NCBI RefSeq assembly: GCF_024502345.1
Contig: NZ_JALDNN010000001.1
Direction: 5' to 3' (one strand)
Source: Escherichia coli
GTDB taxonomy: Bacteria > Pseudomonadota > Gammaproteobacteria > Enterobacterales > Enterobacteriaceae
Length of the DNA stretch: 64,000 bases
In this document: piece by piece, positions 17,067-60,521 of the stretch
How positions within the stretch are numbered: position 1 is the stretch's first letter
How the letters are laid out: each line of letters starts with the position of its first letter
Translations under genes and position numbers: made by a program
Notes under the pieces: generated by a model
Database searches by the model: none
What the model saw: the letters and a program-made list of their open reading frames with translations, nothing else
Told to the model about the DNA's origin: nothing

Positions 17067-17142
<76 letters not shown>

Positions 17143-20213: not shown

Positions 20214-20379
20214 TGTTTAATCCTTTTGGTTTAAACCAGATGAAGCATCTTACGCTTACGCCAAAAAAGAAAGCAATTAACGGTGTATGACTTTGCAGAT
20301 AATTGTGACAAAGCTCTCTATTGACGTAATCCCAGACTTATAAGGGAGATACTCGCATTGGTGTGCGCTCACGACAGGT

Positions 20380-20412
20380 AAAAAAAAACCTGCCAGCGAT
20401 GGCAGGTTTTTT
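20380..20412 (-). terminator. Rho-independent terminator of typA
   Basis: Hairpin CCTGCCAGCGATGGCAGG (20389-20406) flanked by an A-run and a T-run; on the minus strand the stem is followed by a U-run. Confidence 0.8.
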
Positions 20413-20429
20413 ATAACTAAAAAACGAAA

Positions 20430-22253
20430 TTAATCGTCTTTCGGTGCGCGGTTAGCGCGACGACGATCGTTTTCCGTCAGGTGACGTTTACGAATACGGA
20501 TAGAGGTCGGAGTCACTTCTACCAGTTCGTCATCATCGATGAACTCCAGAGCTTGTTCCAGAGTCATGCGGATAGGCGGAACCAGAACAACAGCTTCGTC
20601 AGTACCGGAAGCACGCATGTTGGTCAGTTTCTTACCGGTCAGGCAGTTTACAGTCAGGTCGTTAGAGCGGCTATGAATACCGATAATCTGACCTTCGTAA
20701 ACTTCTGCACCGTGACCGAGGAACAGCTTACCGCGATCCTGCAGACCGAACAGCGCGAACGCGACCGCTTTACCCTGACCGTTAGAGATCAGTACACCGT
20801 TCTGACGCTGACCCACTTCGCCCGGACGTACGTCGTCGTAGTGGCTGAAGGTGGAGTACAGCAGACCAGTACCGGAAGTCATGGTCATGAACTCAGAACG
20901 GAAGCCAATCAGACCACGGCTTGGGATCACGTAGTCGAGACGTACGCGGCCTTTACCGTCTGGATTCATGTTTTTCAGGTCGCCTTTACGTTCGCCCAGC
21001 GCCTGCATTACAGAACCCTGATGCTGTTCTTCAACGTCCAGAGTCACGTTTTCATATGGCTCTTGTTTACGACCGTCGATTTCACGGAAGATAACTTTCG
21101 GACGGGATACCGCCAGTTCGAAACCTTCACGACGCATGTTTTCGATCAGAACAGACAGGTGTAGTTCGCCACGACCAGAAACGCGGAACGCATCAGCGTC
21201 TTCGGTTTCTTCTACGCGCAGCGCAACGTTGTGTACCAGTTCTTTGTTCAGACGATCCAGGATCTGACGAGACGTTACGAACTTACCTTCTTTACCGCAG
21301 AACGGCGAGGTGTTAACGCAGAAGAACATAGAAACGGTCGGCTCATCAACGGAGAGTGCCGGCAGCGCTTCAACGTTTTGCGTGTCGCAAACGGTGTCAG
21401 AAATGTTCAGTTCGCCAAGGCCCGTGATCGCAACGATATCGCCAGCTTCCGCCAGATCGGTTTCGATACGTTCCAGACCGAGGTGGCCCAGCACTTTACC
21501 GACTTTCGCGTTGCGGGTTTTGCCTTCGCTATCGATGATAGTAACCTGCTGGTTCGGCTTCACTTTACCGCGCTTGATGCGGCCAATGCCGATAACGCCA
21601 ACATAGCTGTTGTAATCGAGCTGAGAAATCTGCATCTGGAACGGACCGTCAAGGTCAACGTCCGGCGCAGGAACGTGGTCAACAATCGCCTGGTACAGCG
21701 GGGTCATGTCTTCCGCCATATCTTCGTGGTCCAGACCCGCGATACCGTTCAGCGCAGAAGCGTAAACGATCGGGAAGTCCAGCTGCTCGTCGGTCGCGTC
21801 GAGGTTAACGAACAGATCGAATACCTGATCCACAACCCAATCAGGACGCGCGCCAGGGCGGTCAACTTTGTTGATAACAACAATCGGCTTCAGGCCGTAA
21901 GCAAACGCTTTTTTGGTTACGAAGCGCGTTTGCGGCATCGGGCCGTCAAATGCGTCAACCACCAGCAGCACTGAGTCTACCATGGACATTACACGTTCAA
22001 CTTCACCACCGAAGTCGGCGTGCCCCGGGGTATCAACGATGTTGATACGGTAATCATTCCATTTGATAGCGGTGTTTTTCGCGAGGATGGTAATCCCACG
22101 CTCTTTCTCCAAATCGTTGGAGTCCATCACGCGCTCTTGGGTTTCGGCACGAGAGTCGAACGTACCGGATTGTTGGAGCAGCTTGTCTACCAGGGTGGTT
22201 TTACCATGGTCTACGTGCGCGATGATGGCGATATTACGCAATTTTTCGATCAC
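20430..22253 (-). CDS. typA: Ribosome-binding translational GTPase TypA/BipA
   Basis: 607-aa ORF with G1 motif AHVDHGKTT; EF-G/LepA-like. Confidence 0.95.
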
Positions 22254-22404
22254 AACTTTGCCTCAGGCATTAGAAATAGCGCGTTATTGTACACGGATTA
22301 ATCGCACTACAAAACAGGATCACAAACATCCTCCGCAAACAAGTATTGCAGAGTCCCTTTGTGATCGCTTTCACGGAGCATAAAAAGGGTTATCCAAAGG
22401 TCAT

Positions 22405-22494
22405 TGCACCAATATAGTGCTTAATGTTTCCATTGAAGCACTATATTGGTGCAACATTCACATCGTGGTGCAGCCCTTTTGCACGATGGTGCGC
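22405..22494 (+). promoter_or_regulatory. glnA enhancer: NtrC (NRI) binding sites
   Basis: TGCACCAATATAGTGCT (22405-22421), GCACTATATTGGTGCA (22438-22453), TGGTGCAGCCCTTTTGCACGATGGTGCGC (22466-22494); each matches the TGCACC-N5-GGTGCA NtrC consensus. Confidence 0.85.
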
Positions 22495-26935: not shown

Positions 26936-27023
26936 GCCGGATGCGGCGTGAACGCCTTATCCGGTCTACAAAAGCAATATTTTCAACAGGTTTTGTAGGC
27001 CTGATAAGCGTAGCGCATCAGGC
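26936..27023. repeat. REP elements
   Basis: GCCGGATGCGGCGTGAACGCCTTATCCGGTCTAC and GTAGGCCTGATAAGCGTAGCGCATCAGGC. Confidence 0.85.
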
Positions 27024-29159: not shown

Positions 29160-29227
29160 AATGGTTCGTCTTTTAGCCGTTTTATTCAGTATAGATTTGC
29201 GGCGGAATCTAACAGAAAGCAAGCAAA

Positions 29228-29470
29228 GAAAAAAGGCGACAGATTACTCTGTCGCCTTTTTTCCTGACTCATAACCCTTAACGGGTCTTACAATCCTTGC
29301 AGGCCGCCAACACACCCTGTTTTTCCATTAGCCGGAACAATCCGTGTTGATTCCATTTCCGTTTAATTACGTCTCCGGACGTTTGTCTTCCTGACAATCC
29401 TCTGTCTTCGCCTCCTGGCGCTCCTGACCCTCATCCTGAGTCATTGTTCCTGTTAGCGTCCTCGCTCTAT
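29228..29470 (-). ncRNA. csrC: CsrC sRNA (CsrA-sequestering)
   Basis: Minus-strand transcript beginning ATAGAGCGAGGACGCTAACAGGAACAATGACTCAGGATGAGGGTCAGGAGCGCCAGGAGG... with more than a dozen GGA triplets, ending in hairpin GGCGACAGAGTAATCTGTCGCC plus U-run. Lies in the yihI-engB intergenic region; sequence recognised as CsrC. Confidence 0.85.
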
Positions 29471-29740: not shown

Positions 29741-30373
29741 TTGACTAATTTGAATTATCAACAGACGCATTTTGTGATGAGTGCGCCTGATATTCGCCAC
29801 CTACCTTCCGATACCGGAATTGAAGTGGCTTTTGCAGGCCGTTCCAACGCAGGTAAATCCAGCGCGCTGAACACGCTGACTAACCAGAAAAGCCTGGCTC
29901 GTACCTCAAAAACCCCTGGACGCACCCAGCTTATCAACCTGTTTGAAGTGGCTGACGGCAAGCGTCTGGTTGACTTGCCTGGGTACGGTTATGCGGAAGT
30001 CCCGGAAGAGATGAAGCGCAAATGGCAGCGCGCGCTCGGCGAGTACCTCGAAAAACGTCAGAGCCTACAAGGTCTGGTAGTGCTAATGGATATTCGCCAT
30101 CCGCTGAAAGATTTGGATCAGCAGATGATTGAGTGGGCGGTAGACAGCAATATCGCCGTGTTGGTACTGCTGACCAAAGCGGACAAACTGGCAAGTGGCG
30201 CACGTAAAGCGCAATTGAATATGGTGCGTGAAGCGGTGCTGGCGTTTAACGGTGATGTGCAGGTTGAAACGTTTTCTTCGCTGAAGAAACAAGGCGTGGA
30301 CAAGCTGCGGCAGAAACTGGATACCTGGTTTAGCGAGATGCAGCCTGTAGAAGAAACGCAGGACGGCGAATAA
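29741..30373 (+). CDS. engB: Ribosome biogenesis GTP-binding protein EngB (YihA)
   Basis: 210-aa [24 protein letters not shown]... with P-loop GRSNAGKSS; frame begins at a TTG codon. Confidence 0.9.
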
Positions 30374-30393
30374 TTTTCTTGCCTTAATGCTTG

Positions 30394-30473
30394 TGCCGGA
30401 TGTGGCGTATCCGGCCCGTAAATTCAATAGATTACAATTCTACCGTTGGCCTGATAAACATGGCGCATCAGGC
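30394..30473. repeat. REP elements
   Basis: TGCCGGATGTGGCGTATCCGGC and GGCCTGATAAACATGGCGCATCAGGC. Confidence 0.8.
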
Positions 30474-30498
30474 ATTGCGGATTTTTTCTTTCGCCCAA

Positions 30499-30607
30499 TA
30501 AAAAACGCCCCAGTCATTACTGACTGGGGCGGCTAAAATATTCAGCCAAATCCGATTACGTGAAGTAAAAGGTCTGAAAGATAGAACATCTTACCTCTGT
30601 ACCCTAC
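30499..30607 (-). ncRNA. spf: Spot 42 sRNA
   Basis: Minus-strand 109-nt sequence GTAGGGTACAGAGGTAAGATGTTCTATCTTTCAGACCTTTTACTTCACGTAATCGGATTTGGCTGAATATTTTAGCCGCCCCAGTCAGTAATGACTGGGGCGTTTTTTA, ending in a terminator hairpin plus U-run; recognised as Spot 42. Confidence 0.92.
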
Positions 30608-30754
30608 GCGACTAACTTTACTCTTTTTTGTTCAGTTCAGAAAGCACTTTTTGTAATTTTTTTTCAGTTGTTGCATAGGAATTTCTAATAGCCATCACAA
30701 AACGTGACAGCTTATGTTGCTTACTTACGAAAAAAGGGCATGTTCAGGCGAATC

Positions 30755-33541
30755 TTAGTGCGCCTGATCCCAGTTTTCGCCACTCCCCACTTCCACCAGC
30801 AACGGCACATCCAGACGGGTACAGTTTTCCATCAGTTGATGAATCTGCTTCGCGACGGCATCAACATCATCTTTATGAACTTCAAATACCAGTTCATCGT
30901 GTACTTGCATGATCATACGTACACGCGGTTGCTCAGCCTGTAACCACGCATCAACGGCAATCATCGCCCGTTTGATAATGTCGGCGGCGGTTCCCTGCAT
31001 TGGCGCGTTAATGGCTGCACGTTCAGCCGCTGCACGACGAGCACCATTGCTGGATTTGATATCCGGCAGATACAGACGGCGTCCGTCCAGCGTTTCAACG
31101 TAGCCCTGCTCTTTCGCCTGAGCACGGGTGCGTTCCATATACTCCAGCACGCCAGGGTAGCGTTCGAAGTAAAGGTCCATGTACTTCTGCGCTTCTTTAC
31201 GTGGAATGTTCAATTGCCGCGCCAGACCGAAAGCACTCATGCCATAAATCAGACCAAAGTTGATCGCTTTCGCGCTACGGCGTTGCTCGCTGGTGACGGT
31301 TTCCAGTGGCAAACCAAACACTTCTGCCGCCGTTGCCCGGTGGATATCTTTTCCTTCCGCGAATGCGGTCAGCAAGCCTTTGTCACGCGAAAGATGCGCC
31401 ATAATGCGCAGTTCAATCTGCGAGTAGTCCGCTGAGACAATCACATAATCCTCTGGCGCAATAAACGCCTGGCGGATACGACGACCTTCTTCGTTACGCA
31501 CCGGAATGTTTTGCAGGTTAGGATCGGTTGACGATAAACGTCCCGTTGCAGTTACTGCCTGGTGATAAGAGGTATGCACACGCCCGGTTTTCGGGTTGAT
31601 CATCAGCGGCAGCTTGTCGGTGTAGGTCGATTTCAGCTTCGCCAGACCACGATACTCCAGAATCACTTTTGGCAACGGATAGTCCAGCGCCAGTTCTTCC
31701 AGTACCTCTTCCGACGTTGACGGCGCGCCACCCGGCGTTTTCTTCAGCGGTTTAATGCCCTGTTTTTCAAAGAGAATGGTTTGTAACTGCTTGGTGGAAG
31801 AAAGGTTAAATTCCTCACCTGCAATTTCATGCGCTTTCTTTTCCAGCTCAGCCAGACGAAGGGTGAGCTCTTCAGAATGATTGTGCAGCACTTTCGGATC
31901 GATCTTCACACCGTTACGTTCAATGCGTGAAAGCACCGGCACCAGCGGCATTTCGATATTCTCGAAGACGTTCAACGGCCCTTTGTGTTTTTGCAGATCC
32001 GGCCACATTTTCAGATGCAACTGCAAGGTGACATCTGCATCTTCGGCGGCGTAACGTCCGGCTTCTTCGAGGGCAATCTGGTTAAAGGTCAGTTGATTTT
32101 TGCCTTTACCAGCAATCTCTTCAAAAGTGATGGTTTTGTGCTTCAACCAACGTTCCGCGAGGCTGTCCATATCGTGACGCCCGGCAACGCTATTGAGAAT
32201 GTAGGACTCCAGCATGGTATCAAACGCAATCCCACGCAGTTCAATGCCGTAGTTCGCCAGAATACCGCGATCGTATTTCAGGTTTTGCCCGACCTTCAGC
32301 GCCTTTTCATCTTCCAGCAGCGGTTTTAGCAACTCGAGTGCACGCTCGCGAGAGATTTGATCGGGCGCATCAAGATAATCATGAGCAACCGGAATATATG
32401 CCGCTACGCCTGGCTCGATAGCAAAAGAAAGCCCGACCAGGTTAGCAGAGATGTTATCAAGGCTGTCGGTTTCGGTATCAAATGCAAATACCGGCGCTTT
32501 TTCCAGCTTCGCAATCCACGCTTTCAGTGTTTCTTCATCAAGGATGGTGACGTAGTTGTCATAAGAAATCACCGTTGCCGTCACTTCTGGTGCTTCGTCT
32601 GCAACACTGGTTTCCTGTGGCTTCGCGGCTGGTTTTGCCCCTTTGGCCTGTAACCATTTGCCCGCTTCGACATCAGCAGTCCAGCGTTTGAACTCATACT
32701 TTTTGAACAGCCCCAACAACTCTTCCGCTGCCGGTTGCTGCACTTCCAGTTGTTCACAGGTCAGCTCCAGTTCAACGTCGGTTTTAATCGTCGCCAGCTG
32801 GTATGAGAGATAAGCAACTTCTTTGTTTTGCTCGAGCTTCGCTGCCATTGTTTTCGCGCCACGGAAGCTCAACCCAGCAATTTTTTCTGGCTCGGCATAC
32901 AGCGTATCCAGCCCGCCCAGACCTTGCAGCAATGCCTGCGCGGTTTTTTCACCGACGCCCGGTACGCCAGGGATGTTATCGGAGGAGTCACCCATCAGCG
33001 CCAGGAAATCGATGATCAGTTCTGGCGGCACGCCGTACTTATTCACCACCTCTTCCGGTCCGAGGATGGTATTCGTCATGGTATTGATAAGCGTAATATT
33101 TGGCGTCACCAGCTGCGCCATATCTTTATCGCCAGTGCTGATCAGCACCGGACGCCCGGCTTTTTCGGCTTCGCGCGCCAGAGTACCGATAACGTCGTCC
33201 GCTTCTACGCCAGAAACCGCCAGCAGCGGCAGTCCCATCGCTTTAACCATCGCGTGCAGAGGTTCGATTTGTGCTCGCAGATCGTCCGGCATTGGCGGGC
33301 GATGTGATTTGTAATGTTCAAACAGTTCATCACGAAAGGTTTTTCCCTTGGCGTCAAAGACCACCGCTGCATGCGTCGGTTTATATTGCATGATCAGACT
33401 GCGCAGCATGTTGAGGACACCATACATCGCACCGGTCGGCTCGCCTGCGCTGTTAGTCAGCGGGGGAAACGCGTGATATGCGCGATAAAGATAAGATGAA
33501 CCATCTACAAGGATAAGTGGATTTTGGGGGATCTGAACCAT
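30755..33541 (-). CDS. polA: DNA polymerase I
   Basis: 928-aa ORF with 5'-3' exonuclease, 3'-5' exonuclease and polymerase (Klenow) domains. Confidence 0.97.
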
Positions 33542-39702: not shown

Positions 39703-39822
39703 ATGCCTGGCAGTTCCCTACTCTCGCATGGGGAGACCCCACACTACCATCGGCGCTACGGCGTTTCACTTCTGAGTTCGGCATGGGGTCAGGTGGGACC
39801 ACCGCGCTACGGCCGCCAGGCA
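39703..39822 (-). rRNA. rrfA: 5S ribosomal RNA
   Basis: 120-nt reverse complement matches the E. coli 5S sequence (TGCCTGGCGGCCGTAGCGCGGTGGTCCCACCTGACC...CTGCCAGGCAT). Confidence 0.95.
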
Positions 39823-39914
39823 AATTCTGTTTTATCAGACCGCTTCTGCGTTCTGATTTAATCTGTATCAGGCTGAAAATCTTCTCTCATCCGCCAAAAC
39901 ATCTTCGGCGTTGT

Positions 39915-42817
<2,903 letters not shown>

Positions 42818-43000
42818 TCACAACCCGAAGATGTTTCTTGCGATCCATCATCGTGTTGCGAAAATTTGAGAGACTCACGAACAACTTTCGTTGTTCAGTG
42901 TTTCAATTTTCAGCTTGATCCAGATTTTTAAAGAGCAAAACTTCGCAGTGAACCTTTTCAGGTACACTCTGAAGTATTTTTTATTTAATCACTACAGAGA

Positions 43001-43076
43001 TGGTGGAGCTATGCGGGATCGAACCGCAGACCTCCTGCGTGCAAAGCAGGCGCTCTCCCAGCTGAGCTATAGCCCC
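43001..43076 (-). tRNA. alaT: tRNA-Ala (UGC), 16S-23S spacer tRNA
   Basis: Reverse complement GGGGCTATAGCTCAGCTGGGAGAGCGCCTGCTTTGCACGCAGGAGGTCTGCGGTTCGATCCCGCATAGCTCCACCA. Confidence 0.95.
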
Positions 43077-43118
43077 ATAACATGTAGTTAAAACCTCTTC
43101 AAATTTGCCGTGCAAATT

Positions 43119-43195
<77 letters not shown>

Positions 43196-43263
43196 GTAGA
43201 GGTTTTACTGCTCATTTTCATCAGACAATCTGTGTGAGCACTGCAAAGAACGCTTCTTTAAGG

Positions 43264-44805
<1,542 letters not shown>

Positions 44806-52725: not shown

Positions 52726-52732
52726 CCACTTG

Positions 52733-52845
52733 CCGGATGCGGCGTGAACGCCTTATCCGGTCTACCGATCCGGCACCAATGTAGGCCTGATAAGACGCGC
52801 CAGCGTCGCATCAGGCGTCGTGCACCAATTGCCGGATGCGACATA
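52733..52845. repeat. Cluster of REP elements downstream of fadA
   Basis: GCCGGATGCGGCGTGAACGCCTTATCCGGTCTAC; GTAGGCCTGATAAGACGCGCCAGCGTCGCATCAGGC; partial TGCCGGATGCGACAT. Confidence 0.85.

Positions 52846-58278: not shown

Positions 58279-60521
<2,243 letters not shown>

What the first reader, a model, noticed from the sequence alone, without database searches (positions are those of the whole stretch)
30499..30607. Spot 42 (spf) sRNA between engB and polA, flanked by REP elements
A 109-nt minus-strand sequence is identical, as far as I recall, to Spot 42, the CRP-repressed Hfq-dependent sRNA, including its rho-independent terminator. REP palindromes lie just downstream of engB at 30394-30473.
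Basis: partly seen in the sequence, partly recalled or inferred. Interest (0 to 1): 0.25.

Follow-up and report, generated by a model that had tools for sequence, protein, structure and literature searches.

The report
Spot 42 small RNA gene (spf)
This stretch is the ordinary, textbook E. coli gene for Spot 42, a small sugar-metabolism regulatory RNA that also encodes the 15-residue protein SpfP; it is correctly identified and nothing about it is new.

Summary
Window 30499-30607 (minus strand) is base-for-base identical to spf (Spot 42) of E. coli K-12 MG1655. It matches Rfam RF00021 end to end (122.8 bits, gathering score 80). It lies between polA (30755-33541, -) and engB/yihA (29741-30373, +), as in K-12. 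The same 109 nt occur once in 5424 of 5426 complete E. coli genomes at >=99% identity.

All expected parts are present:
- the published CRP site (30681-30702)
- a -10 box, TAAAGT
- three hairpins, the last an intrinsic terminator whose stem covaries across gamma-proteobacteria
- a 5' half whose best pairing site in 3 kb of gal mRNA is the galK start region

The REP claim also holds. There are two REPs, at 30395-30415 and 30449-30473, forming a degenerate y-L-z1 (BIME-1-type) pair. They lie only on the 3' side of spf, so "flanked" overstates it.

Verdict: already known, low interest.

The parts
30499..30607 (-). spf gene: the 109-nt Spot 42 RNA. The 5' end (+1) is the G at 30607. RefSeq K-12 annotates 111 nt, which corresponds to 30497-30607.
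   Evidence: Identical to K-12 b3864. Rfam RF00021 scores 122.8 bits against a gathering score of 80. MFE is -40.6 kcal/mol, z = -5.08.
30542..30589 (-). spfP: a 15-codon ORF plus stop (MFYLSDLLLHVIGFG*) nested in Spot 42. The AUG is at RNA nt 19-21. It is preceded by the SD-like AGAGGU (RNA nt 10-15, window 30593-30598).
   Evidence: Identical to K-12 spfP b4837. Also annotated in the 100%-identical strain ES5. Translation and CRP binding were shown experimentally in PMC8916003.
30560..30607 (-). 5' stem-loop (RNA nt 1-48). It holds base-pairing regions I and II and sequesters the SD and AUG of spfP.
   Evidence: MFE structure. Its pairs are 98-100% paired across 83 homologues but almost invariant, so they are uninformative for covariation. 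Region names are from PMC8577784.
30547..30559 (-). Single-stranded linker (RNA nt 49-61, GUAAUCGGAUUUG), which contains base-pairing region III. RNA nt 53-61, UCGGAUUUG, pair with CGAAUCCGG at galK -19..-11, overlapping the galK SD.
   Evidence: Unpaired in the MFE structure. There are 9 contiguous pairs with the galK leader. PMC8577784 describes region III as covering the galK SD.
30531..30547 (-). Middle hairpin (RNA nt 61-77, GGCUGAAUAUUUUAGCC). The spfP stop codon UGA lies in its 5' arm.
   Evidence: MFE structure. 87% of cells are paired across homologues, with one pair showing G-C to A-U compensation.
30499..30531 (-). Rho-independent terminator: stem-loop CGCCCCAGUCAGUAAUGACUGGGGCG (30531..30506) plus the U6A tail (30505..30499).
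   Evidence: Terminator scan. In 9 of 10 stem pairs, pairing is kept through changes on both sides across 83 sequences.
30615..30620 (-). Probable sigma-70 -10 hexamer TAAAGT at -13..-8. The -35 region is weak (TTCTGA at -35..-30). An A-tract at -57..-41 (30648-30664) resembles an UP element.
   Evidence: Read directly from the sequence output. The generic promoter scan found no site with at least 9 of 12 matches. The assignment is an inference.
30681..30702 (-). CRP binding site TTTTGTGATGGCTATTAGAAAT. The core is centred at -84.5 relative to +1.
   Evidence: It is the only TGTGA-N6-TCACA match with 2 or fewer mismatches in 30600-30760, where about 0.045 would be expected. It is identical to the published E. 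coli spf CRP site quoted in PMC3295665 from Polayes et al. 1988.
30395..30415 (+). REP-A: a y-type REP, GCCGGATGTGGCGTATCCGGC. It is shortened by a 9-nt internal deletion relative to canonical y copies, and the adjoining CTAC tetranucleotide is degenerate.
   Evidence: Pattern scan and hairpin of -12.2 kcal/mol. Alignment to the y REPs at 17067 and 26936.
30416..30448 (.). 33-nt linker between the two REPs. It carries an IHF-like motif, ATTCAATAGATTA (30422-30434), with 1 mismatch to WATCAANNNNTTR.
   Evidence: It partly resembles the linker of the canonical y-L-z1 element at 26936-27023.
30449..30473 (-). REP-B: a z1-type REP (GCCTGATGCGCCATGTTTATCAGGC on the minus strand). It is 22/25 identical to the z1 copy at 26999-27023. 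The adjoining tetranucleotide is GTTG instead of GTAG.
   Evidence: One difference from K-12 lies inside it, at 30462.
29741..30373 (+). engB (yihA), a GTPase gene convergent with spf.
   Evidence: ORF of 210 aa. Collinear with K-12 b3865.
30755..33541 (-). polA (DNA polymerase I), upstream of spf on the same strand. Its stop codon lies 147 nt before the spf +1.
   Evidence: ORF of 928 aa. Collinear with K-12 b3863.

Best explanation
This is the chromosomal spf gene of an Escherichia coli strain. It is not K-12, but it is identical across this locus to many sequenced isolates.

How it works:
1. Transcription starts from spf's own sigma-70 promoter at the G at 30607 and ends at the intrinsic terminator at 30499-30531, giving the 109-nt Spot 42 RNA.
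2. cAMP-CRP, bound at 30681-30702, lowers transcription, so the RNA is abundant on glucose and scarce on poorer carbon sources.
3. With Hfq, three exposed or partly exposed segments in the 5' 61 nt pair with the translation-initiation regions of mRNAs for uptake and catabolism of non-preferred sugars. For galK this blocks translation and promotes Rho- and RNase E-dependent loss of the distal gal transcript. Together with CRP this forms a coherent feed-forward loop.
4. The same RNA is also translated, more so at high temperature when the 5' hairpin opens, into the 15-aa SpfP. SpfP binds CRP and dampens activation of some CRP-dependent promoters.
5. The two REPs between the convergent 3' ends of engB and spf are a degenerate BIME-1-type repeat. 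They belong to the intergenic spacer, not to spf.

Shown here: sequence identity, model match, fold, terminator, covariation, synteny, presence of the CRP site, galK complementarity, and an intact spfP. Taken from the literature and not testable here: CRP repression, Hfq dependence, target regulation, and SpfP translation and function.
For: - Rfam RF00021 matches full length at 122.8 bits against a gathering score of 80.
- Identity to K-12 spf is 109/109, and spfP is identical.
- The 6 kb around the site is collinear with K-12 at 99.1%, with no substitutions in spf.
- The gene is single-copy and >=99% identical in 5424 of 5426 complete E. coli genomes.
- The fold has z = -5.08 and there is one terminator.
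- Across 83 non-redundant homologues from Enterobacterales, Vibrionales, Aeromonadales and Alteromonadales, 97.1% of pair cells are standard pairs, against 36-51% when partners are slid. 10 pairs show compensatory changes, 9 of them in the terminator.
- The polA>spf><engB arrangement holds in 88 of 116 loci, and most exceptions lack flanking sequence.
- The published CRP site is present verbatim.
- Spot 42 nt 1-62 find their best duplex in 3 kb of gal mRNA at the galK start. The top 8 of 583 windows all overlap it, at -49.4 kcal/mol against a median of -24.9. For the 90-nt initiation region, 4 of 1000 shuffles do as well. This agrees with the roughly 75-nt binding site described in PMC8577784.
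- Function as published: PMC8916003, PMC3295665, PMC8577784.
Against: Nothing argues against the identification. The limits are as follows.
- No expression data exist for this strain.
- The generic promoter scan finds no strong sigma-70 consensus, so the -10 and -35 assignment is by position only.
- The CRP site is centred at -84.5, an unusual place for a repressor. How CRP represses from there is not explained by the sequence.
- The 5' hairpin is invariant in my sample, partly because the search pattern lies inside it, so covariation says nothing about it.
- A full-length RNAduplex against gal mRNA was not specific. Only the 5' 62 nt gave a specific signal.
- The galK test used the K-12 galK sequence, not this strain's.
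Confidence: 0.98

Rival explanations
1. The locus is Spot 42 acting purely as a non-coding base-pairing RNA. The 15-codon frame is a by-product of RNA-level conservation and has no function of its own in this organism.
For: The codons overlap the base-pairing regions, and the stop codon sits in the arm of the middle hairpin, so RNA constraints alone could preserve the frame. The frame is lost in Shewanella and Parashewanella homologues, which have 11 to over 39 codons. The C-terminal residues vary among orders: GFG, GLG, ECG, GFS. Early work concluded that Spot 42 is not an mRNA (cited in PMC3295665 and PMC8916003).
Against: PMC8916003 reports detection of chromosomally tagged SpfP, growth effects of a recoded SpfP-only construct, and co-purification with CRP. 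RefSeq K-12 now annotates spfP as b4837. The window's ORF and SD are identical to the tested K-12 sequence. A frame of exactly 15 codons is kept in 98 of 115 genuine homologous loci, although the first 7 codons were fixed by my search pattern.
Confidence: 0.1
2. The RNA is not made from its own promoter. It is processed from the 3' end of the polA transcript, making it a 3'UTR-derived sRNA.
For: spf lies 147 nt downstream of polA on the same strand. No canonical terminator-like site was found between polA and spf. The generic scan finds no strong promoter.
Against: A -10-like TAAAGT sits at the correct distance from the annotated +1, with an upstream A-tract and the published CRP site, all conserved with K-12. 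Published CRP repression of spf transcription implies an independent promoter (PMC8916003). In Aeromonas the gene is kept without polA upstream.
Confidence: 0.02
3. The two palindromes at 30395-30473 are not members of the REP repeat family. They are simply the transcription terminator(s) of engB.
For: They lie 22-100 nt after the engB stop codon. REP-B is followed 9 nt later by T6 on the engB strand (GGATTTTTTCTTT, 30479-30491). REP-A is only 21 nt long, shorter than the 30-40 nt given for E. coli REPs in PMC3333891. The GTAG/CTAC tetranucleotides are degenerate.
Against: Both carry the family-specific ends GCCKGATG...YATCMGGC (about 0.04 matches expected per shuffle). REP-B is 22/25 identical to the z1 copy at 26999-27023. 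REP-A equals a y REP with a 9-nt deletion. The whole pair aligns in the same orientation with the canonical y-L-z1 element at 26936-27023, 71 of 89 aligned bases identical. The two readings do not exclude each other, because REPs are reported to act as terminators and mRNA stabilisers (PMC3333891).
Confidence: 0.1

Closest known systems
Spot 42 RNA (spf, b3864) of Escherichia coli K-12 MG1655; Rfam RF00021
   Same: The 109-nt sequence, the nested spfP ORF, the CRP site and the -10 region are all identical. The gene order polA-spf-engB-csrC is the same.
   Different: Nothing differs within the gene. Nearby differences from K-12 are a 1-bp insertion at 30738 just after polA and 3 substitutions in the spf-engB spacer at 30483, 30477 and 30462.
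Spot 42 homologues of Vibrionaceae, Aeromonadaceae and Shewanellaceae (for example Aliivibrio salmonicida Spot 42, PMC3295665)
   Same: They share the 5' ~40 nt core, the three-hairpin layout with an intrinsic terminator, and mostly the same polA/engB neighbourhood.
   Different: The linker, middle hairpin and terminator sequences differ, with compensatory changes. Shewanella lose the 15-codon frame, and Aeromonas lack polA upstream.
Other dual-function sRNAs of E. coli (SgrS/SgrT, AzuCR/AzuC)
   Same: One transcript acts both by base pairing and by encoding a small protein in the same carbon-metabolism pathway (PMC8916003; PMC8915982, listed).
   Different: These are unrelated sequences. In Spot 42 the ORF overlaps the pairing regions, and its protein targets the transcription factor CRP that represses its own gene.
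BIME-1 (y REP - L linker - z1 REP) elements of E. coli
   Same: It has an inverted y + z1 REP pair, is a single copy at the locus, has a long (33-nt) linker with an IHF-like motif, and is intergenic between convergent genes (definition in PMC3333891).
   Different: The y REP has a 9-nt internal deletion (21 nt). The GTAG/CTAC tetranucleotides are degenerate (GTTG, and CCGT in place of CTAC). The linker is only partly similar to that of the canonical copy at 26936-27023.

Membership tests
Spot 42 RNA (Rfam RF00021) | Score at or above the family's curated gathering score, over the full model | tested here: met
   122.8 bits against 80, model positions 1-115 of 115, E = 3.6e-24.
Spot 42 RNA (Rfam RF00021) | Sequence identity with the type member (E. 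coli K-12 spf) | tested here: met
   109/109 identical. >=99% identical in 5424 of 5426 complete E. coli genomes.
Spot 42 RNA (Rfam RF00021) | Three-hairpin secondary structure ending in a rho-independent terminator | tested here: met
   MFE -40.6 kcal/mol, z = -5.08. Terminator found. 97.1% of cells paired, against 36-51% when partners are slid. 9 of 10 terminator pairs covary, while the 5' hairpin is invariant and so uninformative.
Spot 42 RNA (Rfam RF00021) | Conserved genomic context: downstream of polA, convergent with engB/yihA | tested here: met
   Window ORFs. K-12 annotation. 88 of 116 loci from other species share the arrangement. Described in PMC3295665.
Spot 42 RNA (Rfam RF00021) | CRP binding site upstream of the promoter (basis of cAMP-CRP repression) | tested here: met
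   TTTTGTGATGGCTATTAGAAAT at 30702..30681 is identical to the published site. Only the presence of the site was tested, not repression.
Spot 42 RNA (Rfam RF00021) | Antisense complementarity of the 5' half to the galK translation-initiation region | tested here: met
   nt 1-62 pair best at the galK start out of 583 windows across 3 kb of K-12 gal mRNA (-49.4 kcal/mol against a median of -24.9). 4 of 1000 shuffles do as well. The full-length test was non-specific.
Spot 42 RNA (Rfam RF00021) | Hfq binding, and CRP/glucose-dependent expression as a ~109-nt transcript | not testable with these tools
   This needs RNA-seq, a Northern blot or Hfq co-immunoprecipitation. Published for K-12 (PMC8916003).
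Dual-function RNA encoding SpfP | Intact SD + AUG + 15-codon ORF MFYLSDLLLHVIGFG + UGA | tested here: met
   Window 30589..30542 is identical to K-12 b4837.
Dual-function RNA encoding SpfP | The ORF is translated and the peptide binds CRP | not testable with these tools
   Experimental result for K-12 in PMC8916003.
REP / BIME-1 repeats of E. coli | Imperfect palindrome with the conserved REP ends, extragenic, multi-copy | tested here: met
   Both palindromes match GCCKGATG...YATCMGGC. The window holds 5 such palindromes, against about 0.04 matches per shuffle counting both strands. They lie between convergent genes.
REP / BIME-1 repeats of E. coli | REP length of 30-40 nt with a conserved GTAG/CTAC tetranucleotide at the foot (PMC3333891) | tested here: not met
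   REP-A is 21 nt (a 9-nt deletion relative to y copies) with CCGT in place of CTAC. REP-B is 25 nt with GTTG in place of GTAG. They are therefore degenerate copies.
REP / BIME-1 repeats of E. coli | One y and one z1 REP in inverse orientation, separated by a long linker L that often carries an IHF site | tested here: inconclusive
   The y + z1 orientation and the 33-nt linker are met. The IHF-like motif has 1 mismatch. The linker is only partly similar to that of the canonical element at 26936-27023. IHF binding was not tested.

The most novel reading that the evidence does not exclude
The degenerate BIME-1-type element (two REPs plus an IHF-like site), wedged into the 125-bp gap between the convergent 3' ends of engB and spf, may not be a passive repeat. 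It could be a functional insulator that stops engB read-through from producing RNA antisense to Spot 42/spfP, or that sets local supercoiling at the very active spf promoter and terminator. That would couple Spot 42 output to IHF or gyrase. My evidence neither supports nor excludes this. The element is conserved within E. coli, but the spf-engB gap varies from 23 to 1136 bp in other genera, which argues against a general requirement.
Probability: 0.07. Interest if true: 0.3.

Novelty: already known. Interest (0 to 1): 0.05.

Why it matters
It matters only as a correct annotation. Spot 42 is one of the longest-known bacterial small RNAs and a core part of catabolite repression, and since 2022 it is also a documented dual-function RNA. 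One practical point: most RefSeq E. coli records list no feature at this position. An annotation-based scan would therefore see an "empty" intergenic region here, although the gene is textbook knowledge.

Tried and rejected
1. The repeat finder for inverted repeats in 30370-30500 returned nothing, because the REP arms of 7-8 bp fall below its reporting length. A pattern scan and folding found them instead.
2. RNAduplex of full-length Spot 42 against gal mRNA was not specific. Unrelated windows scored as well (-59.3 kcal/mol at -971), because the G+C-rich terminator arm dominates. I repeated the test with nt 1-62, which gave a specific signal.
3. The generic sigma-70 scan found no promoter, so the -10 assignment rests on position relative to the annotated +1.
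4. My first trimming of homologues cut some sequences at T-runs inside the terminator loop. I redid it.
5. RNAalifold did not predict the middle hairpin or the outer 5' stem on the MAFFT alignment. I counted the window's own MFE structure on the alignment instead. That structure comes from one of the aligned sequences, so the paired-cell percentage leans in its favour. The compensatory changes do not.
6. The primary paper on CRP repression (Polayes et al. 1988, PMC211256) is not held. The site is cited second-hand from PMC3295665.
7. Weak sub-threshold Rfam matches over the same bases (PyrR, VrrA, NsiR1, ncS54; E = 0.08-0.4) all rest on the terminator hairpin and were dismissed.
8. SpfP conservation across species was counted, but I do not offer it as evidence of coding selection. 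The first 7 codons were fixed by the search pattern, and the rest overlaps RNA-constrained sequence.

Full report

Yes. The reverse complement of window 30499-30607 reads GTAGGGTACAGAGGTAAGATGTTCTATCTTTCAGACCTTTTACTTCACGTAATCGGATTTGGCTGAATATTTTAGCCGCCCCAGTCAGTAATGACTGGGGCGTTTTTTA.

A scan of the whole window against Rfam 15 at gathering thresholds returns RF00021 Spot_42 at 30499-30617 on the minus strand. It scores 122.8 bits against a curated threshold of 80, E = 3.6e-24, and covers all 115 model positions. A focused scan shows the alignment and only sub-threshold terminator look-alikes besides it. The 10 extra bases at the 5' end belong to the Rfam model's flank, not to the RNA.

The K-12 MG1655 reference annotates spf (b3864) at 4049899-4050009. 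The window's 109 nt are identical to the first 109 nt of that feature.

**2. Context**

- polA is the 928-codon ORF at 30755-33541 (-).
- engB/yihA is the 210-codon ORF at 29741-30373 (+).
- Six kilobases around spf align collinearly with K-12 yihG-polA-spf-yihA-csrC-yihI-hemN at 99.1% identity.
- There are 52 differences in that stretch and none lies in spf. One is a 1-bp insertion at 30738 just after polA, and three lie in the spf-engB spacer.
- The 501-bp locus and the 109-nt gene each occur exactly once in 5424 of 5426 complete E. coli genomes. The gene is always >=99% identical.
- Many isolates are 100% identical over the 501 bp, so the window comes from an ordinary E. coli chromosome that is not K-12.

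**3. Anatomy**

*Structure.* The RNA folds into the three hairpins known for Spot 42, with MFE -40.6 kcal/mol and z = -5.08 against dinucleotide shuffles.
- A long 5' stem-loop spans nt 1-48.
- A single-stranded linker spans nt 49-60.
- A short middle hairpin spans nt 61-77.
- A terminator hairpin of 11 pairs (8 G-C) is followed by U6. It is the only terminator-like site within 550 bp.

*spfP.* Inside the RNA, an SD-like AGAGGU is followed by AUG at nt 19 and 15 codons, MFYLSDLLLHVIGFG, then UGA. This occupies window 30589..30542 and is identical to K-12 spfP b4837. It is also annotated in a 100%-identical isolate.

*Promoter region.* Upstream, TAAAGT sits at -13..-8. The -35 region is weak, and an A-tract spans -57..-41. 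These were read from the output, and the generic scan found no consensus promoter.

*CRP site.* The only good CRP-core match in the polA-spf spacer is TGTGATGGCTATTAGA, centred at -84.5, with 2 mismatches of 10, where about 0.045 such matches are expected by chance. With its flanks it is TTTTGTGATGGCTATTAGAAAT. This is word for word the E. coli spf CRP site quoted in PMC3295665 from Polayes et al. 1988.

**4. Evidence from relatives**

These span Enterobacterales, Vibrionales, Aeromonadales and Alteromonadales.

- *Synteny.* In 88 of 116 usable loci, polA lies upstream on the same strand and engB is convergent downstream. Most exceptions have too little flank, and Aeromonas keeps engB but not polA.
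- *Structure.* On 83 non-redundant sequences, the window's MFE structure is formed in 97.1% of pair cells, against 36-51% when partners are slid by 1-3 columns. Ten pairs show compensatory double changes, nine of them in the ten-pair terminator stem.
- *Limit.* The 5' hairpin is almost invariant. This is partly an ascertainment effect, because my pattern lies in it, so covariation neither supports nor contradicts that stem.
- *SpfP frame.* The 15-codon frame is kept in 98 of the 115 genuine homologous loci. It is lost in Shewanella and Parashewanella, which also carry a 1-nt insertion before the AUG. The first seven codons were fixed by the search pattern, and the rest overlaps RNA-constrained sequence. 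I therefore do not count this as independent evidence for coding selection.

**5. Mechanism**

The published model is as follows. [quoted passage not shown] The RNA binds Hfq and pairs with mRNAs for non-preferred carbon use, galK first among them. It also encodes SpfP, which binds CRP and blocks activation of some promoters (PMC8916003). At galK, pairing over about 75 nt at the galT-galK junction, through regions I-III, causes Rho-dependent termination and RNase E cleavage (PMC8577784).

I tested the pairing step in silico with the K-12 gal operon.
- Full-length Spot 42 was not specific.
- The 5' 62 nt find their best duplex in 3 kb of gal mRNA exactly at the galK start. The top 8 of 583 windows all overlap it, at -49.4 kcal/mol against a median of -24.9.
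- That duplex includes a 10-nt perfect match of nt 27-36 to galK +4..+13, and 9 contiguous pairs of nt 53-61 to -19..-11 over the SD.
- Only 4 of 1000 shuffles do as well on the 90-nt initiation region.

Repression by CRP, Hfq dependence and SpfP translation cannot be tested with sequence tools. They are inferred from identity with the tested K-12 gene. How CRP represses from -84.5 is not evident from the sequence. Interference with an UP-element-like A-tract is only my conjecture.

**6. The REP claim**

The 125-bp engB-spf spacer holds two palindromes with REP-specific ends.
- GCCGGATGTGGCGTATCCGGC lies at 30395-30415, in + orientation.
- GCCTGATGCGCCATGTTTATCAGGC lies at 30473..30449, in - orientation.
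- They are 33 nt apart, with an IHF-like ATTCAATAGATTA between them.
- The window holds five such palindromes, against about 0.04 matches per shuffle counting both strands.

Compared with other copies in the window:
- The first is a y REP with a 9-nt internal deletion.
- The second is 22/25 identical to the z1 REP at 26999-27023.
- The whole pair aligns, in the same orientation, with the canonical y-L-z1 element at 26936-27023 (71 of 89 aligned bases identical).
- The GTAG/CTAC tetranucleotides are degenerate.

By the definitions in PMC3333891 this is a degenerate BIME-1-type element. It lies on one side of spf only, and no REP-end motif occurs between spf and polA.

**7. Comparison, novelty and verdict**

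This is not merely like Spot 42. It is the E. coli spf gene, identical to the type sequence, and every sequence-testable defining feature is met. The one thing to correct is the one-sided position of the REPs.

- Novelty: already known.
- Interest: very low (0.05).
- Most novel reading not excluded: the REP/IHF-like element acts as an insulator between the convergent engB and spf transcription units. I give it about 7%. It would be of modest interest, and the variable spacer in other genera (23-1136 bp) argues against a general role.

Noticed in passing
window 29217-29470 (-): CsrC small RNA (Rfam RF00084), 277.9 bits against a gathering score of 61, full length. It has one substitution relative to K-12, at 29327. 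It sits on the other side of engB, so two well-known sRNA genes bracket engB.
   Followed up: partly
window 39705-44805 (-): A complete rRNA operon: 5S at 39705-39820, 23S at 39915-42817, two tRNAs at 43004-43076 and 43122-43195, and 16S at 43264-44805. By its position relative to polA it should be rrnA. StyR-44 (RF01830) matches the 23S leader at 42825-42933.
   Followed up: no
window 59916-60167 (-); 22335-22442 (-); 20377-20445 (-): Further Rfam gathering-level hits. 'Erse' RF02757 scores 316 bits and ends in ...AAAUGA, so it probably overlaps the 3' end of a coding gene. ES222 RF02755 scores 129.9 bits. STnc370 RF02064 scores only 54.9 against a gathering score of 54, which is borderline.
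   Followed up: no
E. coli RefSeq records under the spf match: Most PGAP-annotated E. coli genomes list no feature at all under spf. A minority carry either 'spot 42 RNA, inhibition of DNA synthesis' (an outdated functional note) or only 'spfP'. The locus would look like an empty intergenic region in annotation-based scans.
   Followed up: partly
L002 479-645 (E. coli ES5, NZ_CP133871.1): A PGAP 'hypothetical protein; frameshifted; internal stop' pseudogene is annotated between yihI and yihA, where csrC lies. It is probably a spurious call over a non-coding RNA gene.
   Followed up: no
E. coli genome collection: Two of 5426 complete E. coli genomes give no megablast match to spf. Two matches lie on records labelled as plasmids, which may reflect mis-assigned replicons or assembly problems.
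   Followed up: no
L055 12913-13038 (-) (Bowmanella yangjiangensis): The conserved Spot 42 5' core is followed directly by a terminator (GGCCCCGGCTCTGCCGGGGCTTTTTTT). This gives a predicted ~75-nt variant without the linker and middle hairpin.
   Followed up: no
Shewanella/Parashewanella loci (e.g. L004, L018, L033, L082); Aeromonas loci (L014, L030, L046, L053, L070): Shewanellaceae homologues have a 1-nt insertion before the AUG (GGUUAAGAUG) and lose the 15-codon SpfP frame, with 11 to over 39 codons. Aeromonas homologues keep 15 codons ending ...IECG but have no polA upstream.
   Followed up: partly
L028 (Muribaculaceae MAG JAFLTQ010000010.1) 1010-1029: An exact 20-mer match to the Spot 42 core, but with no terminator, no other Spot 42 sequence, and no polA or engB nearby. 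It is a chance match, about the number expected for a 20-mer in 298 Gb.
   Followed up: partly
window 17067-17141; 26936-27023; 52732-52838: Other inverted REP pairs (BIMEs) in the window. 26936-27023 is a canonical y-L-z1 element with intact CTAC/GTAG. 52732-52838 holds at least three REPs.
   Followed up: partly
window 30738; 30700-30757 (-): There is a 1-bp insertion relative to K-12 in the C-run just after the polA stop codon. No canonical intrinsic terminator was detected between polA and spf. The only candidate is a 6-bp stem (CAGGCG...CGCCTG) spanning the polA stop codon, with a T6 run 9 nt further on.
   Followed up: no
window 30648-30664 (-): An A-tract (AAAAAAAATTACAAAAA) at -57..-41 of the spf promoter resembles an UP element. 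It might explain the strength of a promoter with a weak -35, and how CRP at -84.5 could interfere. This is inference only.
   Followed up: no
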